From a virus: DNA of 64,000 bases. Positions 988 through 59,377 of the stretch are shown here, piece by piece. Position 1 is the first letter of the stretch; the number at the start of each line of letters is the position of its first letter. The position numbers were made by a program, and so were the translations under genes. Under the pieces are notes generated by a model. It was not told the origin of the DNA. It was given only the letters and a program-made list of their open reading frames with translations, and made no database searches. The stretch lies in the IMG/VR virus record IMGVR_UViG_3300012000_000008, positions 26,749 to 90,748 of that record; one strand, written 5' to 3'.

Positions 988-988
988 A

Positions 989-4298: not shown

Positions 4299-4312
4299 GT
4301 AACTATTTATAA

Positions 4313-7713: not shown

Positions 7714-7755
7714 TAATTTATTGATATTTAATATTGAAGAAGCTATAATAAAGAT

Positions 7756-10104: not shown

Positions 10105-10123
10105 AAAGTTTTTAAATAATTTT

Positions 10124-10828: not shown

Positions 10829-11138
10829 TTTAAATAATATGAAATTAGGCTGGTTTGTAGGTAATTTTGAACCAACAGCATTTAAAACAAGTAATTTTGA
10901 AGTTTCCTATAAACTACACAGAAAAAATGAAAAATGGGATAAACATTTTCATACCACAGTAACTGAAATAAACTTAATCATAAGAGGAAAAATGAAAATA
11001 CAAGGCAAATTGCTCTTTAGTCATGATATTTTTATTTTAGAGCCTTATGAAATTGCGGACCCTGAATTTTTACAAGATACAGAAATTATTTGTGTTAAAA
11101 CACCTTCAGCTAACGATAAAGTGGTTGTTAAATTTTAA
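10815..11138 (+). CDS. Small cupin protein (capsule-cluster type)
   Basis: Motifs GWFVGNFEP, HFH...TEIN and VKTPS..DK. Confidence 0.75.
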   Translation: MKLFNLNNMKLGWFVGNFEPTAFKTSNFEVSYKLHRKNEKWDKHFHTTVTEINLIIRGKMKIQGKLLFSHDIFILEPYEIADPEFLQDTEIICVKTPSANDKVVVKF

Positions 11139-11907: not shown

Positions 11908-11943
11908 AGTTGATATTGTTTAAATATATATAATAATTATCTT

Positions 11944-13384: not shown

Positions 13385-13463
13385 AAATTATATTAATACT
13401 TTTCTACTTGCAATCAAGAAAAAGAAATGTTGAATTTTAAAATTTAAAGATTAATATAGATAT

Positions 13464-13664
13464 ATGCACATTGAGAAGTATACAGCTTATGTTAAAGATA
13501 CCCTAACCAAAAAAAGTTTTAAACTTTCCATGGATGGAGACTGCCCCATGGAAGCACACAAGAGTTTCTACAATAGAATTAACAACTATCAAGAAATTGT
13601 TAAAATTACTGATGCCAGTAATGCTACCATATATGACTCAAACACAGGCTTCATAAATAGTTAA
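13464..13664 (+). CDS. Hypothetical protein
   Basis: 66-aa ORF with a promoter-like element upstream. Confidence 0.55.
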   Translation: MHIEKYTAYVKDTLTKKSFKLSMDGDCPMEAHKSFYNRINNYQEIVKITDASNATIYDSNTGFINS

Positions 13665-13844
13665 ATGATCATAGATTTTTTTGATGAAGCCAAACCTTGC
13701 CCTCCTGAAATTAAAAATTGTGAAGAACTCAGAAAGCAATACAAGCAGGATTTAAATTCTTTAAACCCCAGAACATGCAAACCTTGCCAGCTAACCAGCC
13801 TAAAAAACAAATATCTCAACATTATACAACACAAAGATAAATGA
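13665..13844 (+). CDS. Small Cys-containing protein (59 aa, not in ORF track)
   Basis: MIIDFFDEAKPCPPEIKNCEEL...CKPC fills the gap exactly between two genes. Confidence 0.6.
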   Translation: MIIDFFDEAKPCPPEIKNCEELRKQYKQDLNSLNPRTCKPCQLTSLKNKYLNIIQHKDK

Positions 13845-14158
13845 TTGAAGCACTAACAGTTTATTTTGTAGCCCAAGCTGCAACTGTGTTTTGGTTTTAT
13901 TCACCCATTAAAACTTCATTGTTTTATATGTTTACTAAAGAACACACTTTTAATAGTGACAATTTTGATTTACTTTTATTGTCCAAAAGCTCATTATTCA
14001 AAGTCTTGACTTGCACTTTTTGTTTCAGTTTCTGGACCAGCATTGCTGTTGCATGTGTGATATCACATGATGCAAAATCTTTTATTTTTAATCTGTCATT
14101 TACCATTGTGATGGTATATCTTTATGAGCAAATTTTAAATTTCTTAAAGAAAGGTTGA
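13841..14158 (+). CDS. Small membrane protein with CxxC motif
   Basis: Hydrophobic segments; LTCTFCFSFW. Confidence 0.6.
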   Translation: MIEALTVYFVAQAATVFWFYSPIKTSLFYMFTKEHTFNSDNFDLLLLSKSSLFKVLTCTFCFSFWTSIAVACVISHDAKSFIFNLSFTIVMVYLYEQILNFLKKG

Positions 14159-46399: not shown

Positions 46400-47463
46400 T
46401 GGCAGTGGTAGTTTTGAAACCTTCTCGCAGCTTTAGCAGTTGCATTATTTTTATTCTTTTGTCTTGCATGCAAAGCTCTGGCCTTAGAACAAGTAACTTT
46501 GCCTTTTACTTGGCGCTTTAATATACCTGGTCTCACAGGATCATGTATGTTCTTTTCATGAATAGGGTTCTTTCTAGTTAAAACAAAATCAGTAGCATCA
46601 TGTGTGCCATGGCCTGGTTGTGTTGTAAAAATAGATTTTTTAGCGTGAGTAAATCCCAATCTGTCAGCGAATTTTTTAATCAGTCTCTCATATACTTTTT
46701 CTCTGCTTGAAGAATACATCTCATCTTCTAGTAAGTTACTCTTGCCAGACGCAGAAAATGATACTAAATTAACTTTGTAGTTTTCAATAATATCTTTTAT
46801 GAATGCCATGGCATTATTTAATACAGAAGAAACATCTGCATCACCTACCATAGAAATAGAACCTCCATGTTTTGGATCATTAATTGTCTTAAAAGTAATT
46901 TCTGCAGCAGGTAAGTTATCTATGTGTAATTTAGAAAATGCTAAGAGCTCTCTTTTGGAAGGCTCTTTGTCTGGCTTGGGAATAGCAACAACAGCATTAT
47001 ACTCATATATAACAGGCTTACCAATTTTGTTTTTTATTGTTGTATAGTATGTAACTTCTTCTGCTCTTACTCCTCCTTCTGAATCATAATCTTTCATTGG
47101 TTCAATGACCCAGTTTGCCTTTGTTTTTATATTGGGAAAAGATTGAAATAATTCTAGCAATACACTTTCATTTAACTTATGCTGTGATCTAATAATTTGA
47201 TCATACTTATGTTGACCTAGAGATTTTTGAATTTGATTCCATTTAGATTTCCATTGAGTTAATAGGGTTGATGGTACTTCTTTCCATGATGTCCACGCAT
47301 CTTCATTCTCAGGGGTAACAACAGAAACTAAATCTGGTGTCCAAGTAGCACCAGTAGATTGTCTTCCTTTAGGTGTATGCACTATTTTAAAAGTCTTTCC
47401 ATAATTAGAATCCCAATCTATAGGTTGTCTGGATTCAGTAAAAAATTCTTTAAACGTTTTCAT
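46396..47463 (-). CDS. Putative internal head protein
   Basis: MKTFKEFFTE resembles the T4 capsid-targeting sequence; basic C-terminal module. Confidence 0.55.
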   Translation of the reverse strand: MKTFKEFFTESRQPIDWDSNYGKTFKIVHTPKGRQSTGATWTPDLVSVVTPENEDAWTSWKEVPSTLLTQWKSKWNQIQKSLGQHKYDQIIRSQHKLNESVLLELFQSFPNIKTKANWVIEPMKDYDSEGGVRAEEVTYYTTIKNKIGKPVIYEYNAVVAIPKPDKEPSKRELLAFSKLHIDNLPAAEITFKTINDPKHGGSISMVGDADVSSVLNNAMAFIKDIIENYKVNLVSFSASGKSNLLEDEMYSSSREKVYERLIKKFADRLGFTHAKKSIFTTQPGHGTHDATDFVLTRKNPIHEKNIHDPVRPGILKRQVKGKVTCSKARALHARQKNKNNATAKAARRFQNYHCQ

Positions 47464-48530
47464 ACAGGCTTCACATATCCAATCTTATTAAACTTAACCC
47501 CTAAAATTTCTTTATGTGCTTGAATCTTGGCTTTAATTTTAATCTTAGCACCTATTTGATCAGTAGGAAACTTGTATGTGATAAATTTATTACCTTGTGC
47601 ATCTTTTAATTTATAAACATTATAACCAGGTGAATATTGATCCCTTGGAGGTACAAATTTGTAATTATATAATTCCAATTCACCTTCATAACGATCTCCA
47701 ACCTTACCCACGTACTGAGCTGTAGAAGTTTCCTGATTCTTTTTAGTGACATCATCATAATACATCTGAGCAAAAGCTTGTATGGCTTGAGCAGTGTCTG
47801 TCTCAGCATACTTGGGGTCAGCATTCTTAGCAAGAAATGCAAAGTATCCAGGATCTTCAAGGTAAACATCTGGGAATGATTTGCCTCTATATTTACCAAA
47901 AGTAAACACAGGTGTAGCTTTAGATCTGCCTATTAAATGTTCTCTGGTTTGATCTCCATACAACTCTACTCTTACATTCTTAACAACGCTTCTTGATAAA
48001 GCTTTTTGAACTGATGTAACAATGTCTGTAGATAGGTTGCCAAAGTAAATAGGATTCTTAATCCAATTGCGTATTGCAGCTGGTAGTATTCTAAATCTCC
48101 AGAAAGTGTAGTAAACTTGATGCTTACCAGTTACATCAATAAAGTAATAGTTTTCTGGCCCGTCTTTTGGGTTGACCACAGCATCATTATGCTTTTTTAA
48201 CATTTCATATGCTTTATCTTTTTGTTCTTGGGGTACTTCTTTCCAAGGTAGAATACCACCAGTAGCTACTGCACCTTCTGCATTCTCAGCTTTGGCTAGT
48301 TTATCATAATACTTTGGGTCTTCAAATAAATGATCCATAGCAATTTTTCTTGCAGTTACGTTATTACCGGTATGTTCGTGCTCTACTTTAATTCCTTTAT
48401 CTAATTGAGCTTGAAGAGTTTTAATATCTACATTATGTTTTTTAGCCAAATCTTCTAGTGTTTTGCCTGCAGCCAAACCTTTTAAATTATAAGCTTCAAA
48501 TATAAGATATGAATCGAGGTCTAAAGGCAT
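47460..48530 (-). CDS. Multidomain protein: DUF5661-like N-terminus, FGKYRG module, C-terminal OB-like fold
   Basis: GIKVEHEHT...IAMDHLFEDPKYY; FTFGKYRGK; YVGKVGDR. Confidence 0.65.
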   Translation of the reverse strand: MPLDLDSYLIFEAYNLKGLAAGKTLEDLAKKHNVDIKTLQAQLDKGIKVEHEHTGNNVTARKIAMDHLFEDPKYYDKLAKAENAEGAVATGGILPWKEVPQEQKDKAYEMLKKHNDAVVNPKDGPENYYFIDVTGKHQVYYTFWRFRILPAAIRNWIKNPIYFGNLSTDIVTSVQKALSRSVVKNVRVELYGDQTREHLIGRSKATPVFTFGKYRGKSFPDVYLEDPGYFAFLAKNADPKYAETDTAQAIQAFAQMYYDDVTKKNQETSTAQYVGKVGDRYEGELELYNYKFVPPRDQYSPGYNVYKLKDAQGNKFITYKFPTDQIGAKIKIKAKIQAHKEILGVKFNKIGYVKPV

Positions 48531-48680
48531 ATAATTATTTATAAAATATAAGAATATTAGTTTTTGTCAATAAAAAAAATTGATTTTTTTTAAAAAGAGA
48601 ATATAAATATAATTGCTAGTACACATTGTGGCTAGCATTGGACCTAATAGGCCAAAAAAACAAAGAGAGGAGGTAATTAT

Positions 48681-49202
48681 ATGGGAAATAATGGTGACCT
48701 GCCTGTGGAAAGCGGAAAAGCTTATACAGGCCGTGTAGTTCCAAGCTTTACAGCTTGGCCATCGCTAAGAGATGAATTCCTTACACCTTTTGATAGGGTA
48801 TTCGATAAACTAACTAGTGACTTATTCCCTAGCTTGTCTAAGGAGTTTGGTATTGGTTTGTTTGAGAAGGAATCTTATCCTAAAGTTGACATTATTGATC
48901 ACAAAGATCGTGTCTCTATTGAAGCAGAGATTCCTGGTCTGAAGAAAGATCAAATTACTGTTGACGTAAAGGATGGTGTTTTAACTATCTCAGGTCAGAA
49001 GCAATCCAAGAGAGAAGAACAAGAAGAAGGCAATTACGTTCGCAGAGAACTGAAACGTAGTTCATTCCGACGTTCTTTTGCATTGGGTGATAATCTAGAT
49101 CATGACAATGTTAAAGCACAATTCCAAGATGGAATCCTGGTCATTGACGTTGCAAAAGTCAAGCCTGTGGAAACTAAAGCCAAGATCATTGATATCAAAT
49201 AA
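48681..49202 (+). CDS. Hsp20/alpha-crystallin small heat shock protein
   Basis: YPKVDI, AEIPGL, LTISG, SFRRSF and AQFQDGIL; SD GAGGAGGT. Confidence 0.95.
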   Translation: MGNNGDLPVESGKAYTGRVVPSFTAWPSLRDEFLTPFDRVFDKLTSDLFPSLSKEFGIGLFEKESYPKVDIIDHKDRVSIEAEIPGLKKDQITVDVKDGVLTISGQKQSKREEQEEGNYVRRELKRSSFRRSFALGDNLDHDNVKAQFQDGILVIDVAKVKPVETKAKIIDIK

Positions 49203-49222
49203 TAGTATATCAGTGGTTAGCT

Positions 49223-49257
49223 AGAACCCGCTAGTATGTCCTGGCGGGTTCTTTTTT
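49223..49257 (+). terminator. Rho-independent terminator
   Basis: AGAACCCGCTAG-tatgtc-CTGGCGGGTTCT followed by a T-run. Confidence 0.85.
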
Positions 49258-49347
49258 AAAAAATACATGTATAAGTAATTCTAATAACTTTTATAAGGTC
49301 TAACTTTTTTCTAATGTTTTTCAATCTCGTCTGTCTAACTTATATGC

Positions 49348-49478
49348 TTGCAAATAAACTAACAGCCATTTTAAATAGTTTCATGAGGGAGGACCTCACA
49401 TGCTAAAAGATTGCATGATGCTAGCAACTTTATTGCTAGAGAATGGAGTACAAGCCGCATTCTGAGTGCGGCTTTTTT
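49348..49478 (+). promoter_or_regulatory. Promoter plus structured leader with terminator (attenuator-like) upstream of the PEP-CTERM operon
   Basis: TTGCAA-17-TTAAAT; three hairpins; terminator AAGCCGCA-ttctgag-TGCGGCTT-TTTT; 21-codon ORF at 49400-49465. Confidence 0.55.
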
Positions 49479-49490
49479 AATGATCAATTT

Positions 49491-50990
49491 ATGAAAAAAC
49501 TAATAGCAATACTAACATTAACTGCTGCAGCAGTTCTTAACACCAATGCTAATACTATTCTCATAGACTTTGGTGCTTCAGGTGCAGGGTGGTATGGAGG
49601 GGCATCTGTGGTAGGAGCAGACGCCAATGGCAATTACTGGAACAGCATTACTTCTGGTTCCTACTATTCTAATCTGTTAGATACCACAGGCACTGCAACT
49701 ACTGTGAGTGGGTTTGGATTCATGACTGGCATGGCGTTTAATAGTTATAATGGCCCTGCGGGTGCTACTTCCAATCCTCTGACTCAAGCACAGATTAATG
49801 CAACTGTGTTTACATCAGGTGCTGGTATTTTTGGAGTTAAAGAGGCATTAGTCGATTACATAGCAACTACAACCAGTGTACCAAGTGTAAGATGGAGCAT
49901 AGACAATTTAGATACATCCTCCTTATATACAGTAAAATTTTATGGGTCAGCAAAGTTTCAAAATGATTATGCTACTAAATTAAGAGTATATAGTGACAAT
50001 ACTTTTGGTTTAGGTAGTCTGCTAGCCACTGCAACTGCTAATTATCAAAGCCCCACTCAATCCTGGGTGATTAATACTGCTGATATTGGTGTACTAAGCA
50101 ATTTAACTACCACTGGTTCTCTTTATTTTGAAATGACTGGTGCCAACGGAGGCACAGGTATCATAAATGCCATGAGCATTGAAACTGTGGCTATTCCTGA
50201 ACCTAATACATATGGCTTGTTAATGCTTGGATTTTTATTAATATGGATTATGAAAACCATAAACAAAACTAAAGCTGGAGTACTGGTTGCATTGATTGCC
50301 ATTTGCAGTTTAGCTCCAGCACATGCTCAACTTTTAATTAATTGGGATCTACCGACCAGCTCAACAAACAGAAGTGTTGTTTCTAATTTTAATGAAAAAG
50401 GTCTATCTTCTAGCACCATTGAAATGGCATCAGGAATCACGCCATCAAGTATTTCAAATGCTTGGGGAGGAATAAGCTGGACCTCTGGTGGTACTGATCC
50501 TTTTAATAATGCTACAACTAACAATGATTATTTCGCTTTTAGCATAACAGCTAATTCTGGATACCAAGTAACAATAAACGGGGTTTCCAATCTTGGCATA
50601 CAAGTAAGCGCTTCAGGACCAAGATATTGGCATTTGCTTTACAGTACAACTAATGATAATGGTGCATTTATTAATCCTCTTAGGAATTATGGCCCCTTTG
50701 AAGTATCAATACCAACCACTTCTAGTTTAATCACAGACATTACAAATGCATTGAATGCTTCATTTGCTGCAAATCCTATCACTATTTCTGAAGCAACAGG
50801 GTATTTTCGTTTGGTTGGTTATGGAGGCGCTGTAAGTTCTGGAAGTGGGAGAATTGCAGCTGCAGGAACTAATGATTTTGGATTGGTAGGATCTGTATAC
50901 ACAATACCAGAGCCTTCAATTGTTAGCCTTGCTCTTGTGGGACTTCTTGCTCTAAGAAAGAAAATTTATGAAAACAACAAACAAAACTAA
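49491..50990 (+). CDS. Double PEP-CTERM protein (two signal peptide/domain/PEP-CTERM units in one frame)
   Basis: MKKLIAIL signal; IPEPNTYGLLMLGFLLIWI; an internal signal MKTINKTK...AHA; terminal IPEPSIVSLALVGLLALRKK. Confidence 0.85.
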   Translation: MKKLIAILTLTAAAVLNTNANTILIDFGASGAGWYGGASVVGADANGNYWNSITSGSYYSNLLDTTGTATTVSGFGFMTGMAFNSYNGPAGATSNPLTQAQINATVFTSGAGIFGVKEALVDYIATTTSVPSVRWSIDNLDTSSLYTVKFYGSAKFQNDYATKLRVYSDNTFGLGSLLATATANYQSPTQSWVINTADIGVLSNLTTTGSLYFEMTGANGGTGIINAMSIETVAIPEPNTYGLLMLGFLLIWIMKTINKTKAGVLVALIAICSLAPAHAQLLINWDLPTSSTNRSVVSNFNEKGLSSSTIEMASGITPSSISNAWGGISWTSGGTDPFNNATTNNDYFAFSITANSGYQVTINGVSNLGIQVSASGPRYWHLLYSTTNDNGAFINPLRNYGPFEVSIPTTSSLITDITNALNASFAANPITISEATGYFRLVGYGGAVSSGSGRIAAAGTNDFGLVGSVYTIPEPSIVSLALVGLLALRKKIYENNKQN

Positions 50991-51687
50991 AACTGGTTTG
51001 CTTGCTGCATTGCTGGCCATCTTTAGTCTAAACACCATTAATGCAGAAATTATATTCACAGAAGACTTTGAGGATGGTGCATGGACTGGCTTCAGTTCCT
51101 ACCCTTCAGCAAATACTTCAGTACTCAACTCTGGTGATACCATATATGGTGCACCTGCCACTGGTGCCCCTGGAACTTACATTGTAGCTCCTGGTGGCTC
51201 CAAACTGGGTAAAATGTGGCCATTATACTGGTCACCAGGCAATGTGACCACATCCACATTTGTTCTGTATAATGACTACTATGCAACACCTGAAACTGGA
51301 TGGGTGCCTTATTTGCAAGGCAAACAAGTAAAAATATCCATGGATGTGTACATATCCAGCTATGATCCCATGCAAGCCAGCACTGATGTGAACATATTTG
51401 CCAAGTTCTTTAACCAGGACTATTCATACTACTATGATTGGGCATCAGTAATTACTTCTGTCAAAGATACCCTGCTAGACACATGGGTAACCAGAGAAAT
51501 AACTGTAACTGTGCCCAATGATGTTTCCATCATACAGTTTGGATTGGAAATGACTCAAAAAAATTATAGCTCTGGAGCTGTTAATGTTGATAACATGGCA
51601 ATTCAAATAGTACCAGAACCTTCAGCAGGTGCTTTGATAGTAGCTGGTACTGGTTGTTTGGTAGCCCTCAGAAGGTTCAGAAAATAA
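50968..51687 (+). CDS. PEP-CTERM protein
   Basis: Signal peptide; VPEPSAGALIVAGTGCLVALRRFRK. Confidence 0.9.
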   Translation: MKTTNKTKTGLLAALLAIFSLNTINAEIIFTEDFEDGAWTGFSSYPSANTSVLNSGDTIYGAPATGAPGTYIVAPGGSKLGKMWPLYWSPGNVTTSTFVLYNDYYATPETGWVPYLQGKQVKISMDVYISSYDPMQASTDVNIFAKFFNQDYSYYYDWASVITSVKDTLLDTWVTREITVTVPNDVSIIQFGLEMTQKNYSSGAVNVDNMAIQIVPEPSAGALIVAGTGCLVALRRFRK

Positions 51688-52611
51688 ATGATAAGAGTTG
51701 CACTCTGCATTCTGCTATTTCTGCATGCTAGCATGGTGCAGAGTGCAACCTATCAACTGGTGTGGCAAGATGAATTCAATCAATTCACCAGTGGCACTTA
51801 CAACAGATGGGACGTTGATAGAAATGCATGGAATGTGGAAGTTGTTGATAATCCTAATAACAATGAAATTCAGCAGTACAGAGATAACAGAGACAATGTA
51901 AGAATAGAAGTAGATACTTCCAACACTTCTGATGGTATTCTTGTGTTAGAGGCCAGGAGACAGAACTTCTCTCAAAACCTGGGAGCATGGACTTCAGGCA
52001 GAATCAATACCAAGAACAAGATGGAAATAACTTATGGCAAGGTTGAAGTTTCTGCTAAATTGCCTTCCTTGCCAGGTAGCTGGCCAGCCATATGGATGCT
52101 GGGCAGCAATTATGGCAGTGCAGGATGGCCTGCCAGTGGTGAAATTGATATCATGGAAATGGGACGCAATACAGGGTGGAACTATATAAACAGCACTGTG
52201 CACTGGGAGTATAATGGCCATGCTTCATATGGCACAGGTAACTATCAGTCTGGTTCTCCATTGCTTTTAAATTCAGCATCCACTGCATTTCATGTTTATG
52301 GATTAGAGTGGACACCAGATTTTATAAAAACATATGTGGATGGCAATTTGTTATGGACCATAAACATGCCTGTGCCTGGTATTGATCCTTTTGATAATCC
52401 TTTCTTTATGATTCTTAACAATGCCATGGGTGGTGATATTGGAGGCACGGTAGATTCTTCTAGCAACATTTCTCGTATGGAAGTGGATTATGTAAAGGTA
52501 TACCAATCAGCTGACATAGCTGGCAACACCTTGGCAATCCCGGAAATGCAAATAAATCATTTGCTTATAACTAGCTTGCTGTTGTTATTAACAAGGAGAA
52601 ATAGTTTATGA
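51688..52611 (+). CDS. GH16 (laminarinase-like) glycoside hydrolase with degenerate PEP-CTERM tail
   Basis: LVWQDEF, WPAIWML, GEIDIME and FHVYGLEW; tail IPEMQ...LLLLLTRR. Confidence 0.9.
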   Translation: MIRVALCILLFLHASMVQSATYQLVWQDEFNQFTSGTYNRWDVDRNAWNVEVVDNPNNNEIQQYRDNRDNVRIEVDTSNTSDGILVLEARRQNFSQNLGAWTSGRINTKNKMEITYGKVEVSAKLPSLPGSWPAIWMLGSNYGSAGWPASGEIDIMEMGRNTGWNYINSTVHWEYNGHASYGTGNYQSGSPLLLNSASTAFHVYGLEWTPDFIKTYVDGNLLWTINMPVPGIDPFDNPFFMILNNAMGGDIGGTVDSSSNISRMEVDYVKVYQSADIAGNTLAIPEMQINHLLITSLLLLLTRRNSL

Positions 52612-53552
52612 AAAATAAAAATTACATCACCTGGCTGGCTGCATTGCTAATTGTTGCAGTCACTAACATTTGTAATGCAGACTCAGTGTTGTTTGATTTT
52701 GGTCGTCATGATAATACCAATGGAATGACTGTGACAGGTGCTATCAGCCCCAGTGGTGTAGTGGTAGGATCGGCAACTGCTATTGGTGATACAACCAGCT
52801 ATGTATGGAATTCAGTAGGAGCAACCAACCAATTACAAGCATTAAATAACCCCTCTTATACTGGGTTTCAAACACAAGCTGGTGTTTCTGTGGGCTGGAG
52901 CATTGGTAATTTGCTTAGCAATCCTGTATCAGTAACCAACAATGCTTACACACAATCCAATGGATTTTTGAATGGTGGCTTAAAGCAAATCTCCGGTCAA
53001 TCTACCAGTATAAATCCAAGCTTTTCATTGCTAGGAAAATATGCTGTTGCTAATGCAACAGGAGACTATTGGTTTGTAGACAATACTACTGCTACCACAG
53101 GAGGAGCAGCTAGAGCAGGGTTTACTTTGTATGGTTTGGATCCTAATTTGCAATATTCTTTCACCATGTTTGGATCTAGAAGTGGCACTTTAGCCCGATA
53201 TACAAGGTATGTTTTAATTGGAAACAATGTAGGAGATGCAATTCTTCAAACCACAGGCACTGACATTGGAGCTAGCAATGCCACAGGATTGGGTGGCGAC
53301 ACAGGCCTCTACAATGGCAATGACAACAAGACAGCAACAGTCAGTAATATAACTCCTCTGTCTGATGGTACCATATCATTATTATTTTACTCCAGAAGTG
53401 ATGCAAACTTCTCAGCAAACTATTCAACAGACGTGGGCAATACATTTGGTTATTTAAATTTAATGGAAGTAAGCTATATCCCTGAACCTGCAACAAGCAA
53501 TCTTATGATAGCATTTTTGATTTTTTATTCTATATTGGGAAGGAGAAAATGA
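52608..53552 (+). CDS. PEP-CTERM protein (paralog of the first domain of 49491..50990)
   Basis: LFDFG...WNS...FGS...LNLMEV; IPEPATSNLMIAFLIFYSILGRRK. Confidence 0.88.
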   Translation: MKNKNYITWLAALLIVAVTNICNADSVLFDFGRHDNTNGMTVTGAISPSGVVVGSATAIGDTTSYVWNSVGATNQLQALNNPSYTGFQTQAGVSVGWSIGNLLSNPVSVTNNAYTQSNGFLNGGLKQISGQSTSINPSFSLLGKYAVANATGDYWFVDNTTATTGGAARAGFTLYGLDPNLQYSFTMFGSRSGTLARYTRYVLIGNNVGDAILQTTGTDIGASNATGLGGDTGLYNGNDNKTATVSNITPLSDGTISLLFYSRSDANFSANYSTDVGNTFGYLNLMEVSYIPEPATSNLMIAFLIFYSILGRRK

Positions 53553-54004
53553 ATGAGCTATCAAAATTTATTAAAACTATTGGCAATAGTTGCTATGCTT
53601 CCTCTGACCATATGCAAAGTTTCTTACCTGCTTATAAAGCATATCACAAGAGGCAAAACATTAGAAGAAACATTTTTAAAATGGGGACGGCGGGAATTGC
53701 CGGACTTATAGTTGCATGTTTAAGCATGTCGTATATAAATACTAATGAGTTAGATATTGATACAGCTGCAGGAGAATATGTGAATAAAATACCTGAAAAA
53801 AAGATAGTTTTTGAAGGCAATGTTTCAGAAGTTACTGTCTTTATCAAGACAAATATAAAAGAAAAAACTGATACATTGTGTCTAAAAGAATATTTTAATG
53901 GTGAAGATGTGTGGGGAGTGTATGTACGTGGTGATGAAAAATTTAGGTTTTATTACCAGTGCATGGGCAAAGGCAAATATATTGTTTTTACTACGGAAGA
54001 ATAG
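53549..54004 (+). CDS. Single-TM protein (anti-sigma-like topology)
   Basis: Basic stretch followed by one TM helix; ATGA-coupled to the PEP-CTERM operon. Confidence 0.55.
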   Translation: MNELSKFIKTIGNSCYASSDHMQSFLPAYKAYHKRQNIRRNIFKMGTAGIAGLIVACLSMSYINTNELDIDTAAGEYVNKIPEKKIVFEGNVSEVTVFIKTNIKEKTDTLCLKEYFNGEDVWGVYVRGDEKFRFYYQCMGKGKYIVFTTEE

Positions 54005-54038
54005 TTGATTTTTTTTATATTTTATGCATAATAGTTAT

Positions 54039-54398
54039 ATGAAAAAGTTTTTACTGCTATGCACGATAGGTCTTGCTTCTGTGGCCATGTCTCAAAATAT
54101 CAATATTGCTGACAAGCCAAGCATTGTTATTAAATTGGTAAAGAATGATGCTGGTGAAATTTTATTAAAGATTTCTGGTCATAGTCAACCTGTAGAATTA
54201 TGCTTGGGGGATGAAAAAATTGCAATTCTCTATGAACAGGATACTGCTGTTAATTTGTCTCAATGCGGTTTTGAATCTAAGATTCTGTCTCTGAGTACAG
54301 AGAGTGGTTCTGCAGGTTCTAAAATTGATGCACAGCCCATAGTGCCTCCAGTAACTCCTGCAGTTTTTTCCAACCCCTCTGCAGCTACTCCTTTTTAA
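54039..54398 (+). CDS. Secreted protein
   Basis: MKKFLLLCTIGLASVAMS signal; Pro-rich C-terminus. Confidence 0.6.
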   Translation: MKKFLLLCTIGLASVAMSQNINIADKPSIVIKLVKNDAGEILLKISGHSQPVELCLGDEKIAILYEQDTAVNLSQCGFESKILSLSTESGSAGSKIDAQPIVPPVTPAVFSNPSAATPF

Positions 54399-54852
54399 GT
54401 TTAACAAAATCTGGTGGTAATGCTCCCCAATCATCAACAACAAAGCATTTTTCTATTTTTATTTCATAAGTTTTTTCAGCCCATTCTTTTAGTCTTTCGT
54501 TGTAATTACTTCTTTTGCTAGCATTTCCTACTGGCATAGTACCATAATTCATGTCATAAGCCCACAATTTATTTTTATATTCAAATATGCATACAGCATG
54601 TCCAAACACCATGCTTGAATCTTTGCCATCAATTTTTATATCTTCTTTGTATCTGAAAATATATCCAAATATGGAAGAATAAACCCTGGGGGTAGTTTCT
54701 GTTTTTAATACCAAGCTAGCTCTGGAAGAATATATTAAAGATTCCAGAAAACAAGAGTTGGGCAATTGAGTGTAATTATAGGGTTTATAGGCTTTGTTTT
54801 TACTCCATGTAAATCCAGTCTCAAAGGCCAAAAAGATTGCTGTTAAAAACAA
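54385..54852 (-). CDS. Membrane-anchored transglutaminase/papain-like Cys-His-Asp protein
   Basis: NSCFLES, GHAVC and WAYD. The frame stays open to a possible ACG start at 54894. Confidence 0.5.
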   Translation of the reverse strand: MFLTAIFLAFETGFTWSKNKAYKPYNYTQLPNSCFLESLIYSSRASLVLKTETTPRVYSSIFGYIFRYKEDIKIDGKDSSMVFGHAVCIFEYKNKLWAYDMNYGTMPVGNASKRSNYNERLKEWAEKTYEIKIEKCFVVDDWGALPPDFVKLKKE

Positions 54853-54941
54853 ACCTATTGCAACACAACACTTTAAAATGCGTATAATCTTCGTATAATT
54901 ATTTAGCTTGTAAAGCCAAGTTTTTCATGTATATTTAGATC

Positions 54942-55853
54942 ATGCAATTGTCATTGTGCTGTCAAAGCAATTTGTTACATGAAGGTGGGGTCAAGTTCCG
55001 TACTATGACTGTTACTCAGTTCAAGAAAAAACCATTGCAAGAATCATTGAATATATTATGTTCTAGAATTATTACTAATTTCCATACATTGGAGCGCACT
55101 GTTAATTTGTGCAAACACATGGGTCTTGCGGGCATGCGCATTGGCAGTGATCTGATTCCTGTTATCAACCATCCTGATCTCAATTTAGACTTTCATAAGC
55201 TTCCTATGCAAAATGAAATAATGCATGCAATTAACAAAGCCAAATATGCCATGCAACAGTCTGGATTGCGCTTCTCTGCACATCCTTCTGAATTTATTAG
55301 TCTTACATCTGAAAACCCTAAAGTGGTGGCTAACAGCATTCGTGATCTTATTGCCCACGCTCTTGTGTTTGAATTGCTTGGGTTGCCAGAATCTTATGAA
55401 GCCCCGCTTAACATTCATATACGCAAAGATGGAGACCCAGAGTTAATTTACCACAATGTAATGCGTAGCTTGAAACAATGCCCCACATGCGTAACTAAAC
55501 GTCTTGTTTTTGAAAATAATGATAACAAATCAGGGGTGTGGAGCATCAAGAATTTGGTGCATTATTTTCATGGTCGGTTAGGAATTCCTATTACCTATGA
55601 TAACTTACATCATGAAATGCTTTCTGATGGGTTGTCACACCATCAAGCTTTTGATGCTGCTTATGATACCTGGGGCAGTTTTATGCCCATATTTCACTAT
55701 TCAGAAGGCATTAAAGGCACTAGGAAACATGCAGACTATGCTAAATCTCTGCCTGTTGACTATGGTAGACCGGTTATTTGGGAAGTAGAATTAAAAGCCA
55801 AAGACAAAGCCATCAAGCGCATGATCAAACAACATGAAGTATCTCATCATTGA
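54942..55853 (+). CDS. uvsE: UV damage endonuclease
   Basis: LSLCC, SAHPSEF, FENND, YDNLHH, FHYSE, RKHAD and ELKAKD. Confidence 0.92.
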   Translation: MQLSLCCQSNLLHEGGVKFRTMTVTQFKKKPLQESLNILCSRIITNFHTLERTVNLCKHMGLAGMRIGSDLIPVINHPDLNLDFHKLPMQNEIMHAINKAKYAMQQSGLRFSAHPSEFISLTSENPKVVANSIRDLIAHALVFELLGLPESYEAPLNIHIRKDGDPELIYHNVMRSLKQCPTCVTKRLVFENNDNKSGVWSIKNLVHYFHGRLGIPITYDNLHHEMLSDGLSHHQAFDAAYDTWGSFMPIFHYSEGIKGTRKHADYAKSLPVDYGRPVIWEVELKAKDKAIKRMIKQHEVSHH

Positions 55854-56667
55854 TGCTACCAACTTACTGTACCGCACATGGCATGTCACCCAGCAAGCTC
55901 CAGCTGATATTTTAATTCTTACCTATCTCAGAAGCATCAGAAAGTATTTGAATGAATTTAAACCTGATGCAAGTTACTCAGTTTCTGATAAAAGATTGAC
56001 ACATGGTGTGAAGAATTATCGCAGACAAGATGCAGATTACAAACAAAATCGTGACAAAAGTTTATGGCAAAGTGTGCATGAATCGGAAGACACCATAGAA
56101 CAGCTTACCACACACTTGGGCATTGTAAATTTGTTTCCCGGCATTCTAGAAGCAGATGATGTAATAGCTTATTTGTGCAGAACATTGCAAGGCCATAAAA
56201 CTGTGGTATCAACAGATAACGACATGGCACAGTTGATCTGTGAAGATGTGCAATTGTACTCTCCAGTTAAAAAAATATTAGTAACAATGGAAAATTTTGA
56301 GCAACACTATCCTGTGAACAAAAACAGATTCTTACTATACAAAAGTATCATAGGAGATGCTGCAGACAATATCAAAGGCATACCTGGTTATGGCAAGGTT
56401 AAAGCCAAAAAGCTTACAGAAAACTTTGAACATGAACATCTAAAGTTAACTGAAGATCAAAGGAAAACCTTGAAGTACAATTTAGAAATGGTAGATTTGA
56501 AACATGGCTTGAAAGTGCATCCAGAAGAAGAAGCAGTTTATAAAGAGCAATTGGATAGCAAAGTTTCAAACCCTAATTTTAATGCCTTTTTAGACATGTG
56601 CAAAGAACATAAGATGCATTCCATTGTTTCTGATTCAGCATCTTGGAGCCATTTGTTACCCAGTTGA
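55834..56667 (+). CDS. 5'-3' exonuclease (T4 RNase H / Pol I 5' domain)
   Basis: IIDATN, YKQNR, LEADDVIA, STDND and GDAADNIKGIPGYG. Confidence 0.9.
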   Translation: MKYLIIDATNLLYRTWHVTQQAPADILILTYLRSIRKYLNEFKPDASYSVSDKRLTHGVKNYRRQDADYKQNRDKSLWQSVHESEDTIEQLTTHLGIVNLFPGILEADDVIAYLCRTLQGHKTVVSTDNDMAQLICEDVQLYSPVKKILVTMENFEQHYPVNKNRFLLYKSIIGDAADNIKGIPGYGKVKAKKLTENFEHEHLKLTEDQRKTLKYNLEMVDLKHGLKVHPEEEAVYKEQLDSKVSNPNFNAFLDMCKEHKMHSIVSDSASWSHLLPS

Positions 56668-56697
56668 AATTCGCATAATATCTTATAATATATTTCT

Positions 56698-57384
56698 ATG
56701 GGTATGTTTGATCATGTTATTATAGAAGGCTTGAAACTGCCCAAGCTTCCTGCAGAAATTAATGCTTTTTTAAAAGCTAATGATGCTGCATTGCCGGCAG
56801 ATTTTCAGACCAAAGATCTAGACAATACCCTGGCTACTTATACTATCAGAGAGAATGGCCAGGTTTACTTGACAGAATATGTGCCTACAGGTAAAAAAGT
56901 CCCTTATGAACCTATCTGGAAGTCGCTCACTGATAATAGAAGCTTCCTAGAAAGAGTTTATTCAAACGTTAAATATGGTTATTACAAAGACAAGTCTAAA
57001 TCAAATCTAGTAGAAGAAAGAAAGGCTGTACAATCCAAAGTAAAATTTACAAGCACATTTAATGCTTTCATTTATCATGAAATTGCTGGCCGTTATCTGG
57101 ATGCAGAATATGAATTTACTGTTGTAGATGGCAAAGTAACCAAAGTAAAATTGCTTAGAATTGAGCTAGAATCAGAAGCTTCTGCCAATAAACGCAAAGC
57201 AGGTGATGCTGCTTTTAAAGCCAAGATGGATGCTTCTTTTGAAGCCAGAAGAAAATTTACTTCTCTGTGGTATTACCCAATTCTTAAAGAAATTTACAAC
57301 CCATTTGTGTTTTTCTCTAAATTAATAATTCAAGCCGTGTGTAACAAAATAATAAGTTGGACATACCGCTGGCATGGCATCTAA
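56698..57384 (+). CDS. Hypothetical protein
   Basis: MGMFD...FQTKDL phage motif. Confidence 0.65.
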   Translation: MGMFDHVIIEGLKLPKLPAEINAFLKANDAALPADFQTKDLDNTLATYTIRENGQVYLTEYVPTGKKVPYEPIWKSLTDNRSFLERVYSNVKYGYYKDKSKSNLVEERKAVQSKVKFTSTFNAFIYHEIAGRYLDAEYEFTVVDGKVTKVKLLRIELESEASANKRKAGDAAFKAKMDASFEARRKFTSLWYYPILKEIYNPFVFFSKLIIQAVCNKIISWTYRWHGI

Positions 57385-57544
57385 CAATACATACACTCTC
57401 AAAGTAGAGCAAAATGAAATTACGGAAGAATACTATGTTATTCTGCCTGAGCAGCTTCTCAAAAAATTAAACTGGAAACCTGGAGATACAATTAGTTGGC
57501 ATATTAAAAAAGATGGTTCTATTTTTGTTAAAAAAGCAGAATAA
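57374..57544 (+). CDS. AbrB/MazE-like small protein (56 aa, not in ORF track)
   Basis: YVILPEQLLKKLNWKPGDTISW...DGSI. Confidence 0.7.
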   Translation: MASNNTYTLKVEQNEITEEYYVILPEQLLKKLNWKPGDTISWHIKKDGSIFVKKAE

Positions 57545-57552
57545 AATATGAT

Positions 57553-58095
57553 ATGAACAAGCAGGTGCATAGAATTTTAGGTAAATATCTTGACGGGCAT
57601 GCATTTTCTAAAAATGATTTTTTAGAAAAAATATATTTTATTTTTTGGAGATGGTTTTATAAAATTAAAGCTTTGCCATATACAATACAATATCTTTATC
57701 AGAGAATCACCAGAGGGTTTGATGATTTGGATAAATGGAATGCTGCATGGTATATAGCAAGAAAAGCTGCTCCTGTTCTTCGTGCATGGAGAACAGGAAA
57801 AATGCATGGATCTGCTCTCAAGTGGCACAGAGAAGACCGCCATGGCAACATCATAGAGCTCTCTGTAGAAGAAGTGTATGCTGGGAGCAAAGAAGAAGGA
57901 TGGGAAGGACCCAACGCATTTACAATGGAAGAATGGCAAGCCATATTGGATGATATCATATTTGCTTTTCAGTGGCAGATAGATTTTGATTCCTTTGATG
58001 GCACTGTAGATGACAAAGAATATAAACAAGGCATGAAGAGGCAGAAAAGAGGATTAAAACTGTTTGCTATTTATTTTAATAGCTTGTGGGATTGA
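57553..58095 (+). CDS. Hypothetical protein
   Basis: C-terminal EWQAILDDIIFAF...GLKLFAIYFNSLWD phage motif. Confidence 0.7.
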   Translation: MNKQVHRILGKYLDGHAFSKNDFLEKIYFIFWRWFYKIKALPYTIQYLYQRITRGFDDLDKWNAAWYIARKAAPVLRAWRTGKMHGSALKWHREDRHGNIIELSVEEVYAGSKEEGWEGPNAFTMEEWQAILDDIIFAFQWQIDFDSFDGTVDDKEYKQGMKRQKRGLKLFAIYFNSLWD

Positions 58096-58131
58096 TTTTT
58101 TATGTACAGTGTTTATATTAGAGATAGGGTT

Positions 58132-58296
58132 ATGAAGCTAAAGGAGAACGACCGTTTAAAAGATGACTTAAATGCAGTTCTCAAGAAACATGGCATAGGT
58201 GTTGATGAAGCCATGATGGTGCTGGATGAAATTTTTTATGATAAGTATAATGGTCATAAATCTATGAATTGTATTGCTGAGATCAATGGCAAATGA
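58132..58296 (+). CDS. Hypothetical protein
   Basis: Small ORF coupled to the next gene. Confidence 0.45.
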   Translation: MKLKENDRLKDDLNAVLKKHGIGVDEAMMVLDEIFYDKYNGHKSMNCIAEINGK

Positions 58297-58544
58297 TTAT
58301 TAAATTTGGAGCTGATAAATCTGATGCTTATGCTTCTTGGGCTAAGATTGAGAATGTCTACATAAGTAGACCATTTTTTAAAATTGTTCTTGACAATGGA
58401 ATGGGTATCTATATGCTCAATAGTTACAAATGTAATCTGCTGCCTCGTTTTTCTTTTCAACACAGTTCTGGTTATTTAAAATTTGGTATTAGATGGTTAA
58501 AAGGTTGCATTGAATTTCAGTACAACAAGGTGTTTGCTACATGA
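58293..58544 (+). CDS. Hypothetical protein
   Basis: 83-aa ORF. Confidence 0.5.
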   Translation: MIIKFGADKSDAYASWAKIENVYISRPFFKIVLDNGMGIYMLNSYKCNLLPRFSFQHSSGYLKFGIRWLKGCIEFQYNKVFAT

Positions 58545-58614
58545 CCACTTCAACTGTTCTTATTTGTGTTGCAGTGTTGTTGTATGTATTATACTTGCGT
58601 GAAAGATTTAAAGA

Positions 58615-58884
58615 TTAATTTTCAAGATACTCTTGTATCTTTTGTTTTAGTTGCTTTCTCCTTTGTCGCTGTCTTCTGTCTAGCACTGTTACAAGTGTTG
58701 CAACTGATATGGGGAAGAAAAATCTCAGGAAAAATTGAAGGTGATCCTGATTGGTCAACTGATCAAAATATACAGTGTATAGTTCGTGAATACCCAACAA
58801 AGTCCAGATCATAGCTGGTGCAAATAAAACCCAGAACACAATATTGTAGCTTTTGCTGAAGTGGCTTTTGATTTTTTGCAGCAT
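58615..58884 (-). CDS. Small 2-TM membrane protein
   Basis: Two hydrophobic helices and a basic tail; ATG follows TAAATAATTAT. Confidence 0.6.
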   Translation of the reverse strand: MLQKIKSHFSKSYNIVFWVLFAPAMIWTLLGIHELYTVYFDQLTNQDHLQFFLRFFFPISVATLVTVLDRRQRQRRKQLKQKIQEYLEN

Positions 58885-58899
58885 ATAATTATTTAGCAC

Positions 58900-59103
58900 A
58901 TGAAGCATATTTTTACAAAGATTTGGTTGATTTGGTCTCGTACCATTGATCACCGAGTAGGTTTATCAGATTCAGACAAGCCAGACATACCCAATCTCAA
59001 AGTGCGGGATGCTAATATAAGCCTAATTCTTAGAACACTCATAGTGTTAGTAAATTTTATAACATGCGGATTCATTATAGCCAATGTTATACATCACTGG
59101 TAA
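58900..59103 (+). CDS. Small membrane protein
   Basis: C-terminal NFITCGFIIANVIHHW motif common in aquatic phages. Confidence 0.65.
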   Translation: MKHIFTKIWLIWSRTIDHRVGLSDSDKPDIPNLKVRDANISLILRTLIVLVNFITCGFIIANVIHHW

Positions 59104-59258
59104 TGAACAGAATACAGTACAATGCTGCTCAGTTGTATCTGGAAAAATGTGAGTACAGGTTAAAACTACAGAACTCCAGAGCTTTTATTTTAATATTATC
59201 AGTAACATTTGTTACAATTTTCTTTTATATTTTAAAATTTATAGTAGCATTACCATAA
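59103..59258 (+). CDS. Small membrane protein
   Basis: TAATG coupling; C-terminal TM helix. Confidence 0.45.
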   Translation: MNRIQYNAAQLYLEKCEYRLKLQNSRAFILILSVTFVTIFFYILKFIVALP

Positions 59259-59377
59259 TATTCATTTATACTAATAATAGTTCACATTAAATGTTGGGTG
59301 GCAGTTACCGTAATTGTGAACTGATTCGGTATCCATATCCTAGCATACGTTTTGTGGTGTGCGTTAAAACCACTTAA

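What the first reader, a model, noticed from the sequence alone, without database searches (positions are those of the whole stretch)
49491..54398. Phage-encoded operon of PEP-CTERM (exosortase-substrate) surface proteins
Seen: four overlapping or abutting genes carry five signal peptides and five PEP-CTERM-type tails (IPEPNTY, IPEPSIV, VPEPSAG, degenerate IPEMQ, IPEPATS; each followed by a TM and usually basic residues). They sit among typical phage genes and share the phage's CpG depletion, so they look long-resident. Known: PEP-CTERM is the Gram-negative sorting signal processed by exosortase, linked to exopolysaccharide/floc formation, and abundant in Verrucomicrobia and Planctomycetes. 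No exosortase is visible in this window. Inference: the phage uses the host exosortase to remodel the infected cell surface (superinfection exclusion, aggregation, grazing protection or glycan foraging). I do not know of this being described for phages.
Basis: partly seen in the sequence, partly recalled or inferred. Interest (0 to 1): 0.82.

Follow-up and report, generated by a model that had tools for sequence, protein, structure and literature searches.

The report
Phage-carried PEP-CTERM surface-protein gene cluster
A large uncultured T4-like phage, probably of Verrucomicrobia, carries a swappable cluster of host-derived secreted proteins (sugar-binding modules and a beta-glucanase) ending in the PEP-CTERM tag, which only a bacterial exosortase is known to read and which the phage lacks, so it probably re-dresses infected cells through the host's own sorting machinery.

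Summary
Window 49491-53552 encodes five modules in four ORFs. [quoted passage not shown] Four tails are canonical. The GH16 glucanase tail is degenerate (PEM) here but canonical in three orthologues.

The contig is an IMG/VR virus record (90.7 kb, CheckV 42%) with T4-type clamp loader and baseplate wedge. A syntenic relative carries the gp23 capsid gene.

A strict tail pattern hits only the island in the whole contig. It finds 43 tails in 32 of 65 related viral contigs, always on one side of a conserved Cys-His-Asp peptidase-like gene.

No exosortase was found in 11 viral records, two of them CheckV-complete. M1, M2 and M3 have their best cellular homologues in one small-genome verrucomicrobial family, where 28 of 34 genomes encode exosortase.

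The phage copies are ameliorated (CpG o/e 0.15 against 0.9-1.35) and under purifying selection (dN/dS 0.07-0.31).

Use of the host exosortase and the purpose (surface or slime remodelling versus glucan foraging) remain inferred.

New here: cargo swapping between close relatives, and an in-frame "tail plus next signal peptide" junction in three phages.

This scan has already noted phage-borne PEP-CTERM genes on other, unrelated phage DNA. I found no published description in the library searched.

The parts
49223..49252 (+). Terminator-like hairpin after hsp20 (12 pairs plus T-run)
   Evidence: conserved base for base in L003.
49452..49474 (+). Second hairpin plus T-run, 16 nt before the start of gene 1. 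It closes a leader of about 290 nt.
   Evidence: It lies inside the 49443 ORF extension, so 49491 is the likely start.
49491..50249 (+). Module M1: signal peptide, beta-sandwich-type 'DFG...NAMSI' domain, PEP (50196) and helix. It has no stop and runs in frame into M2.
   Evidence: TIGR02595 20 bits; orthologues at 69-81% in L003 and L004; 43% to a 265-aa verrucomicrobial PEP-CTERM protein, L089.
50250..50990 (+). Module M2: MKTINKTK signal peptide, unknown domain, IPEPSIV tail (PEP at 50907), helix, RKK
   Evidence: (52% identity, E 1.3e-54, to the N-terminal domain of a large protein in G320).
50968..51687 (+). Module M3: signal peptide, CBM-like beta-sandwich, VPEPSAG tail (PEP at 51613)
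   Evidence: AF2 pLDDT 81; Foldseek E 3e-9 to CBM-family sandwiches; dN/dS 0.07-0.31.
51688..52611 (+). GH16 beta-glucanase with signal peptide, intact EIDIME catalytic motif (52141-52158) and a degenerate tail IPEMQ...TRRNSL (52537-52608)
   Evidence: PF00722, 66 bits; orthologues P0034-36 have canonical PEP tails; identity collapses just before the PEP codons.
52608..53552 (+). Module M5: signal peptide, beta-sandwich-type domain, IPEPATS tail (PEP at 53481). Absent from the closest relative.
   Evidence: (35-42% to verrucomicrobial PEP-CTERM proteins).
53549..54004 (+). Y: bitopic membrane protein (cytoplasmic N-terminus, one helix, 'NxLDIxTxxGE'), conserved at the end of the cargo in relatives
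   Evidence: no family hit.
54024..54398 (+). Z: small secreted protein with a conserved C-terminus PPV...ATP[FY]
   Evidence: no family hit.
54385..54852 (-). X: membrane-anchored papain/transglutaminase-like protein with conserved Cys33, His84 and Asp99. It flanks the cargo site in 65 viral contigs.
   Evidence: (VIA Z 5.8 vasohibin, 5.7 AvrPphB, 4.8 LapG).
48681..49202 (+). Hsp20 small heat-shock gene, the conserved left flank of the island
   Evidence: PF00011, 5.9e-25; 93% in L003.

Best explanation
The island is the cargo bay of a conserved envelope-directed cassette in a lineage of large phages. The window's phage is T4-like with a genome of roughly 215-230 kb. A second group, with genomes of about 130-170 kb and no Pfam Gp23 hit in the four records tested, shares the cassette. 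The cargo genes were taken from Verrucomicrobiota, most likely from the host's own small-genome family, and have long been kept by the phages. Proposed mechanism: in the infected cell each module is exported by Sec through its signal peptide and held in the inner membrane by the PEP-CTERM helix. The host's exosortase, which the phage does not encode, then cleaves at the PEP motif and passes the protein to the outer surface or exopolysaccharide layer. The infected cell thus displays phage-chosen glycan-binding modules (M3, probably M1 and M5) and a beta-glucan hydrolase (GH16). My preferred purpose is remodelling of surface glycan or slime in the phage's interest, such as masking or cutting receptors, excluding other phages, or keeping progeny from sticking. 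I prefer this because the cargo turns over quickly between near-identical phages, as conflict loci do. Shown: gene anatomy, phage context, origin, selection, absence of a phage exosortase and its presence in the donor family. Inferred: export, exosortase processing, final location and purpose.
For: Anatomy and HMM hits. Phage identity: clamp loader 2.4e-78 and baseplate wedge 7e-42, virion proteins, gp6 about 25% identical to cyanomyovirus gp6, IMG/VR record at CheckV 42%. The syntenic relative G002 has gp23 at 2.9e-89, and the complete 229.7-kb relative G470 has gp23 at 7.8e-91. Spread: 43 canonical tails in 32 of 65 viral contigs that carry X; TIGR02595 passes its cut-off in 9 of 10 related records tested. 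Origin: best cellular homologues are M3 in G001 (51%, 8.9e-59), M1 in G309 (43%, 2.4e-42) and M2 in G320 (52%, 1.3e-54). All three genomes are in the family-of-G001 list. M5 and GH16 also have verrucomicrobial relatives. Exosortase is present in 28 of 34 genomes of that family and was not found in 11 viral records, two of them 100% complete. Selection and age: PEP and one Arg are invariant in the 14-sequence alignment A1; dN/dS is 0.07-0.31 with pS about 0.7 between lineages; island CpG o/e is 0.15 against 0.9-1.35 in the cellular loci. Cargo nature: M3 has a CBM-like fold, GH16 keeps its EIDIME motif, and relatives carry PATR beta-helix proteins and a GH13 enzyme. Turnover: G000 and G002 share flanks at 86-93% protein identity, but only M1, M3 and GH16 are common to both islands.
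Against: There is no direct evidence of expression, export or cleavage. The host is not identified: the candidate family has GC 48-58% and normal CpG, against 36-40% and strong CpG depletion in the phage, so composition gives no support. Three of the five window tails (M2, M5, GH16) are below both HMM cut-offs, and no window tail reaches the PF07589 cut-off. The GH16 tail has lost PEP in this phage. M1 has no stop codon or basic cluster of its own. X occurs in some phages with no PEP-CTERM cargo (L067, L079), so the cassette is not tied to that signal alone. Glycoside hydrolases plus binding modules fit nutrient foraging at least as well as surface remodelling.
Confidence: 0.5

Rival explanations
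1. Same export and sorting route, but the purpose is metabolic. The phage equips the infected cell with extra surface beta-glucan (laminarin-type) capture and hydrolysis to fuel replication, as an auxiliary metabolic gene set.
For: The GH16 has an intact catalytic motif. M3 has a CBM-like fold. A GH13 alpha-amylase-domain protein occupies the same locus in G470. Verrucomicrobia are documented active laminarin degraders (PMC3335022, title and abstract seen).
Against: Cargo differs between phages whose flanks are about 90% identical. The GH16 is missing from the more distant relatives L004-L009. It has lost its PEP motif here. Many cargo proteins are PATR beta-helix, adhesin-like proteins with no enzyme domain.
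Confidence: 0.25
2. The tails work only as C-terminal membrane anchors. The proteins stay in the inner membrane facing the periplasm, and no exosortase is involved.
For: No exosortase on any phage record. The GH16 copy with PEM keeps its helix and basic end. The M1 tail is followed directly by another hydrophobic segment.
Against: P-E-P is kept in all 43 phage tails, while the helix residues vary freely. A mere anchor would not need it. The tails remain recognisable to TIGR02595 in 9 of 10 relatives tested.
Confidence: 0.12
3. The conserved neighbour X, a periplasm-facing Cys-His-Asp peptidase-like protein, is the phage's own processing enzyme for these tails or for host PEP-CTERM proteins. 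It would replace or override the exosortase.
For: X flanks the cargo site in 65 viral contigs and in both gene orders. It has conserved C33, H84 and D99 (C33 and H84 invariant, D99 in at least 90% of 27 sequences) and a papain/transglutaminase-like fold. Fold matches include vasohibin (a C-terminal residue peptidase) and LapG (a periplasmic adhesin-releasing protease).
Against: The fold scores are middling (Z 5.8, below the tool's caution line of 8). X occurs without any PEP-CTERM cargo in L067 and L079. It has no similarity to exosortase. The model has mean pLDDT 67.
Confidence: 0.08
4. The island is not phage DNA. It is a chimeric assembly or a piece of cellular genome, or freshly captured inert host DNA.
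For: All five modules have verrucomicrobial homologues. The contig is only 42% complete and linear.
Against: Both junctions recur in an independent contig with flanks at 86-93% identity. The same cargo type is found in two CheckV-complete phage genomes. The island shares the phage's GC and extreme CpG depletion, unlike the cellular homologues. M3 is under purifying selection, with synonymous sites saturated between phage lineages.
Confidence: 0.03

Closest known systems
Bacterial PEP-CTERM / exosortase (EpsH) sorting system (Haft et al. 2006, PMC1569441; TIGR02595, PF07589)
   Same: N-terminal signal peptide, near-invariant Pro-Glu-Pro, transmembrane helix, basic cluster, several copies per genome, diverse passenger domains, abundance in Verrucomicrobia (abstract read).
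   Different: The genes are encoded by lytic-type large phages that have no exosortase. They are packed as abutting or overlapping genes, and even as in-frame tandems, whereas the paper describes mostly single-gene operons. One tail is degenerate.
Phage-encoded envelope proteins that ride a host sorting route, such as the T5 Llp lipoprotein (Lol pathway) or the prophage-borne LPXTG sortase substrate SasX of Staphylococcus aureus (recalled from memory, not checked here)
   Same: A phage supplies the cargo with the host's address tag and relies on the host enzyme. Known roles are receptor masking, exclusion or colonisation.
   Different: A different sorting system (exosortase), a different host phylum, multi-gene swappable cargo, and glycan-binding or hydrolysing passengers.
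Viral carbohydrate-active enzyme genes treated as auxiliary metabolic genes (for example bioRxiv 10.1101/2024.12.20.629349, abstract seen)
   Same: A phage-borne glycoside hydrolase of host origin (GH16 here, GH13 in a relative).
   Different: Here the enzyme carries both export and surface-sorting signals. It sits among non-enzymatic surface modules in a hypervariable locus.
Phage-borne PEP-CTERM cassettes noted earlier in this scan on unrelated phages (e1-5919078, e1-5325584, e1-3299303, e1-3274673)
   Same: Secreted proteins with PEP-CTERM-type tails, no phage exosortase, and cassette-like exchange of passenger domains.
   Different: Those are one- or two-gene morons in phages of 48-68 kb or soil phages. 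This one is a five-module cluster in a T4-like phage of about 220 kb with a verrucomicrobial donor family. It also has a GH16, in-frame tandem junctions and a conserved X/Y/Z frame. I did not re-test those notes.

Membership tests
PEP-CTERM sorting domain (TIGR02595 / PF07589) | Pro-Glu-Pro motif close to the C-terminus | tested here: met
   M2, M3 and M5 have PEP 23-27 residues from the end. In M1 it lies 264 residues from the ORF end because of the in-frame fusion. GH16 has PEM, but its orthologues P0034-36 have PEP.
PEP-CTERM sorting domain (TIGR02595 / PF07589) | Hydrophobic transmembrane stretch after PEP, then a basic cluster | tested here: met
   C-terminal Kyte-Doolittle maxima are 2.1-2.6 in all five modules. 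Basic ends are RKK, RRFRK, TRR and GRRK. For M1 the basic residues are those of the next signal peptide (KTINKTK).
PEP-CTERM sorting domain (TIGR02595 / PF07589) | N-terminal signal peptide | tested here: met
   Sequence inspection and hydropathy show a basic n-region, a hydrophobic core and an AxA-like site (TNA, AHA, INA, VQS, CNA). No dedicated predictor was available.
PEP-CTERM sorting domain (TIGR02595 / PF07589) | Score over the curated HMM cut-off | tested here: inconclusive
   TIGR02595 (cut-off 16): M3 scores 17.9 and 22.2 bits; M1 scores 20 bits in the six-frame search but 14.5 in the protein scan. M2, M5 and GH16 have no TIGR02595 hit. No window tail reaches the PF07589 cut-off of 20.7; the best is 18.3 bits for the M1-M2 ORF, with M2 only as a second unlisted stretch. 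Cellular homologues of M3 carry PF07589, and relatives pass.
PEP-CTERM sorting domain (TIGR02595 / PF07589) | Co-occurrence with an exosortase (EpsH, PF09721) in the same genome | tested here: not met
   Not found in the contig or in 10 related viral records, two of them CheckV 100%. It is met in the candidate donor or host family (28 of 34 genomes). Membership of the sorting system therefore depends on the host.
PEP-CTERM sorting domain (TIGR02595 / PF07589) | Exosortase-dependent C-terminal processing | not testable with these tools
   Needs expression with and without exosortase, then mass spectrometry.
Glycoside hydrolase family 16 | PF00722 over its cut-off and the catalytic E-x-D-x-x-E motif | tested here: met
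   66.3 bits against a cut-off of 22. EIDIME at residues 152-157. It is 40-45% identical to many annotated GH16 beta-glucanases.
Beta-sandwich carbohydrate-binding modules (CBM4/9/16/22-like) | Jelly-roll beta-sandwich fold with a sugar-binding cleft | tested here: inconclusive
   The M3 model has pLDDT 81. The Foldseek top hit is 2c26 at E 3.4e-9, and many CBM22, CBM16 and CBM11 chains score about 1e-6. The Pfam CBM_4_9 hit is only E 0.042. Binding residues were not examined.
Papain / transglutaminase-like cysteine peptidases (for X) | Cys-His-Asp triad on the papain-like fold | tested here: inconclusive
   C33 and H84 are invariant and D99 is kept in at least 90% of 27 sequences. Fold matches are vasohibin Z 5.8, AvrPphB 5.7, SseI 5.2, CPR-C4 5.0 and LapG 4.8; Foldseek gives E about 1e-3. 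No Pfam hit. Triad geometry in the model was not checked.
T4-like myoviruses (Straboviridae-type) | T4-type core genes (gp6 baseplate wedge, clamp loader, gp23 capsid) | tested here: met
   phrog_219 at 7e-42 and phrog_168 at 2.4e-78 on the contig. gp23 PF07068 scores 2.9e-89 in the syntenic relative G002 and 7.8e-91 in G470. It was not found on this 42%-complete contig itself.

The most novel reading that the evidence does not exclude
The recurrent in-frame junction (PEP motif, membrane helix, M[K/R]TxNKTK, second hydrophobic core, AxA site) would make a true envelope polyprotein. One translated chain would thread out-in-out across the inner membrane. Two host enzymes would cut it into separate surface proteins: signal peptidase after the internal signal peptide and exosortase at the PEP motif. 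The K-rich stretch would serve both as the basic cluster of one signal and as the n-region of the next. The cassette also supplies a stop codon for the upstream gene in its other two frames, so modules can be shuffled in any frame without loss. A phage peptidase (X) may take part.
Probability: 0.2. Interest if true: 0.75.

Novelty: new variant of a known kind. Interest (0 to 1): 0.6.

Why it matters
The exosortase pathway is still a largely genomic inference, with few defined substrates and no simple handle. A phage lineage has kept dozens of PEP-CTERM tails under selection while lacking the enzyme. This argues independently that the tag is read in vivo, and it offers compact natural substrates (240-315 aa) for testing cleavage.

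It also gives a host-prediction marker. Three modules point to one small-genome verrucomicrobial family, a phylum with almost no characterised phages.

It shows that large lytic-type phages invest in re-dressing the outer surface or slime of abundant polysaccharide-degrading bacteria, which bears on aggregation, carbon flow and phage exclusion in nature.

The swappable, frame-tolerant signal-peptide/tail junction is a possible natural design for modular surface display.

Tried and rejected
- **M3 in deposited phages.** M3 had no match in 50,697 deposited phage genomes.
- **M5 in IMG/VR.** The pattern scan found no relative of M5. It appears to be a private acquisition of this phage.
- **PHROGs.** No family matched M1, M2, M3, X, Y or Z.
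- **X in Pfam.** Neither X nor 26 relatives had a Pfam family.
- **Rfam.** Nothing credible in 48400-55100, including the 290-nt leader.
- **X as a dedicated partner of PEP-CTERM cargo.** Weakened, because L067 and L079 have X followed directly by the 88-aa membrane protein and hsp20, with no cargo.
- **Y and Z as a spanin pair.** Rejected. Z has no lipobox cysteine in L003, and Y and Z have no family hits.
- **G001 itself as the host.** Not supported by composition: GC 52-58% and CpG o/e 0.9, against 36% and 0.2 for the phage. Only the family-level signal is used.
- **The 49443 start.** Rejected in favour of 49491 because of the hairpin.
- **The GH16 tail as a frameshifted copy of the canonical tail.** Not supported. 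The DNA alignment shows replacement of sequence from just before the PEP codons onward, not an indel.
- **Promoter scan.** Uninformative: 30 sites against 24 expected.

Full report
**1. What is in the sequence**

On the + strand there are four ORFs: 49443/49491-50990, 50968-51687, 51688-52611 and 52608-53552. They overlap by 23 nt, abut exactly, and overlap by 4 nt.

The first ORF holds two modules in one reading frame. M1 is a signal peptide, a passenger domain, IPEPNTY and a hydrophobic helix. It is followed, with no stop codon, by an ATG at 50250 that opens M2 (MKTINKTK signal peptide, passenger, IPEPSIV, helix, RKK).

The remaining tails are:
- M3: VPEPSAG...RRFRK
- GH16 enzyme: IPEMQ...TRRNSL
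- M5: IPEPATS...GRRK

Each of the five modules has exactly two strongly hydrophobic segments, one at each end. A conserved hairpin with a T-run at 49452-49474 lies inside the 49443 extension, so gene 1 most likely starts at 49491.

**2. Are the tails PEP-CTERM, and is this beyond chance?**

TIGR02595 passes its 16-bit cut-off for M3 (17.9 and 22.2 bits). For M1 it passes in the six-frame search (20 bits) but scores 14.5 in the whole-protein scan. M2, M5 and the GH16 tail have no TIGR02595 hit. No window tail reaches the PF07589 cut-off; the M1-M2 ORF scores 18.3 bits against 20.7, with M2 only as a second unlisted stretch.

Homology fills part of that gap:
- Cellular relatives of M3 (44-48% identical) carry PF07589, and Pro-Glu-Pro and one Arg are invariant in the joint alignment.
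- Three orthologues of the GH16 end in canonical VPEPS, IPEPS or IPEPA tails.
- Verrucomicrobial relatives of M1 and M5 are short proteins with canonical tails.

A strict pattern (P[ED]P, 13 uncharged hydrophobic residues, at least two K/R) run over all six frames of the whole 90.7-kb contig hits only the four island tails.

The degenerate GH16 tail is a local replacement. DNA identity to the close relative collapses just before the PEP codons and stays low into M5, which that relative lacks.

**3. Is it a phage?**

The window is the last 64 kb of a single 90,748-bp IMG/VR virus record, linear, with CheckV completeness 42%. The contig encodes:
- a T4-type clamp loader and baseplate wedge
- large virion proteins and a glycosyltransferase
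- five tRNAs
- a UV-endonuclease-like nuclease and a 5'-3' exonuclease just right of the island

Its gp6 is only about 25% identical to cyanomyovirus gp6, so it is a distant T4-like phage.

An independent contig (G002, 97.7 kb) is syntenic from 47460 to 63952 at 63-93% protein identity (most genes 76-93%) and carries gp23. A CheckV-complete 229.7-kb relative (G470) also has gp23. Misassembly or cellular origin is therefore very unlikely.

**4. The island is a cargo bay in a wider cassette**

A small membrane-anchored protein X (54385-54852, minus strand) has invariant Cys33 and His84 and a near-invariant Asp99 (at least 90% of 27 sequences), and a papain/transglutaminase-like predicted fold. 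Best matches are vasohibin, AvrPphB, SseI, a CPR cysteine protease and LapG, with middling Z values of 4.8-5.8. It is a rare family: 52 representatives among 1.84 billion proteins.

Sixty-five IMG/VR contigs carry X. In 32 of them the strict pattern finds 43 PEP-CTERM tails, all on the cargo side of X (within about 7 kb) and none in the roughly 7 kb on its other side. Many of the tail-less loci simply end just after X.

In those relatives examined that carry cargo, the cargo is followed by Y (a bitopic membrane protein) and, where the contig extends far enough, Z (a small secreted protein ending ATP[F/Y]).

Cargo differs even between near-identical phages:
- G002 shares M1 (its tail broken there), M3 and GH16. 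It lacks M2 and M5 and has a PATR beta-helix module instead.
- G470 has a GH13-domain protein, a pilin-like protein and four PEP-CTERM tails.
- Some phages have X with no cargo, so X is not strictly tied to the tag.

**5. What the modules are**

- M3 folds as a CBM-like beta-sandwich between its two signal helices (pLDDT 81; Foldseek 3e-9).
- The GH16 keeps its catalytic EIDIME motif.
- M1 and M5 belong to a verrucomicrobial set of small PEP-CTERM proteins that begin '...DFG...' and end '...N-A/L-M/I-x-I...IPEP'. The Atlas model of M5 resembles accessory beta-sandwich domains.
- M2 matches the N-terminal domain of a large verrucomicrobial protein.

**6. Origin and host**

A sample of 200 genomes was drawn from across the class of G001. 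In it, M1's best hit is G309 (43%, 2.4e-42) and M2's is G320 (52%, 1.3e-54). M3's best cellular hit is G001 itself (51%, 8.9e-59), a 'Verrucomicrobia bacterium' MAG; only 1 of 301 sampled genomes of the phylum had a full-length homologue.

All three genomes belong to the same family list of 34 small genomes (1.3-2.2 Mb). The closest named relative of the GH16 is also verrucomicrobial. Exosortase (PF09721) is over its cut-off in 28 of those 34 genomes.

The cellular loci have GC 48-63% and CpG o/e 0.9-1.35, against GC 40% and CpG o/e 0.15 for the island. M3 shows dN/dS 0.07-0.31, with synonymous differences near saturation between the two phage groups. The genes are therefore old, ameliorated, selected residents of phage genomes.

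**7. No phage exosortase**

PF09721 finds nothing at E<=1 in this contig or in ten related viral records. These include G470 and G474, both CheckV 100% and both carrying PEP-CTERM cargo.

**8. Mechanism and purpose**

The parsimonious route has three steps: Sec export, anchoring by the tail helix, then cleavage and transfer by the host exosortase, as proposed for bacterial PEP-CTERM proteins (Haft 2006). Conservation of P-E-P across 43 phage tails, while the helix residues drift, is the best indirect sign that the tag is still read.

Purpose is unresolved. Hydrolases plus binding modules fit glucan foraging. The fast cargo turnover, the adhesin-like PATR proteins and the envelope-directed frame (X, Y, Z) fit surface or slime remodelling in a conflict setting. 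I lean to the latter.

**9. The in-frame junction**

The same junction (tail helix, M[K/R]TxNKTK, signal-peptide core, AxA) joins two modules in one ORF in three phages, with different partners on each side:
- window 50193-50330 (M1-M2)
- L003 4137-4270 (PATR module-M3)
- the 522-aa ORF of G470

At 50968 the same cassette (65 nt, 78% identical) sits out of frame and supplies the upstream stop. The cassette gives TGA or TAA in its two other frames. Fusions are thus expected about one time in three, and they are tolerated.

The predicted topology (out, in, out) is self-consistent, so a polyprotein cut by signal peptidase and exosortase is possible. Internal initiation is the alternative.

**10. 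Novelty**

I found no paper in the held library that describes phage-encoded PEP-CTERM clusters. The only near mention is a PEP-CTERM domain in a Dehalococcoides mobile element.

This scan has noted phage-borne PEP-CTERM genes before on other, unrelated phages. I did not re-test those notes.

The present case adds:
- a T4-like host-range context with a family-level donor signal
- a five-module cluster including a GH16
- the X/Y/Z frame
- the tandem junction

Noticed in passing
window 50193-50330; L003:4137-4270; L093:1796-3364 (minus strand): An in-frame junction (PEP motif, helix, M[K/R]TxNKTK, signal-peptide core) fuses two PEP-CTERM modules into one ORF in three phages with different partner modules. 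The same cassette gives a stop codon in its other two frames (seen at window 50968).
   Followed up: partly
window 54385-54852 (minus strand): X is a rare phage protein family (52 representatives in 1.84 billion) with an N-terminal membrane anchor, a conserved Cys-His-Asp set and a papain/transglutaminase-like fold (best matches vasohibin, AvrPphB, LapG). It marks the cargo site in 65 IMG/VR contigs.
   Followed up: partly
window 53549-54398: Y (bitopic membrane protein with 'NxLDIxTxxGE') and Z (small secreted protein with a conserved C-terminal ATP[F/Y]) follow the cargo in the cargo-bearing relatives examined. Neither matches any family. Z's conserved aromatic end next to a vasohibin-like peptidase is an untested coincidence.
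   Followed up: no
window 49203-49490: The 288-nt leader between hsp20 and gene 1 has two hairpin plus T-run elements (49223-49252 and 49452-49474), both conserved in L003 while the middle varies. The second ends 16 nt before the start codon. There is no Rfam match, so this may be an attenuator or regulatory leader.
   Followed up: partly
whole window and L001/L002: CpG is extremely depleted across the phage contig (o/e 0.15-0.53) while GpC is in excess (1.2-1.7). The second phage group (L004-L009) is less depleted (0.52-0.68), and verrucomicrobial loci are about 0.9-1.35.
   Followed up: no
window 1-14000: A very AT-rich stretch (GC 22-29%, against 34-45% elsewhere). The first-stage notes call it a glycan-biosynthesis island. 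I did not examine it.
   Followed up: no
L028:9993-13720 (G470): The complete 229.7-kb relative carries, at the same locus, a secreted 1051-aa protein with a GH13 alpha-amylase domain and a 186-aa protein with a prepilin-like N-terminus. L055 has a pilin-type N_methyl protein (PF07963).
   Followed up: partly
L004-L009 versus window 50968-51687: M3 is 64-79% identical between the T4-like group and the second phage group (about 130-170 kb, no Gp23 hit in the four records tested: G003, G004, G471, G474). The neighbouring X is only 34-43% identical. M3 is either much more constrained or was exchanged between phage lineages.
   Followed up: no
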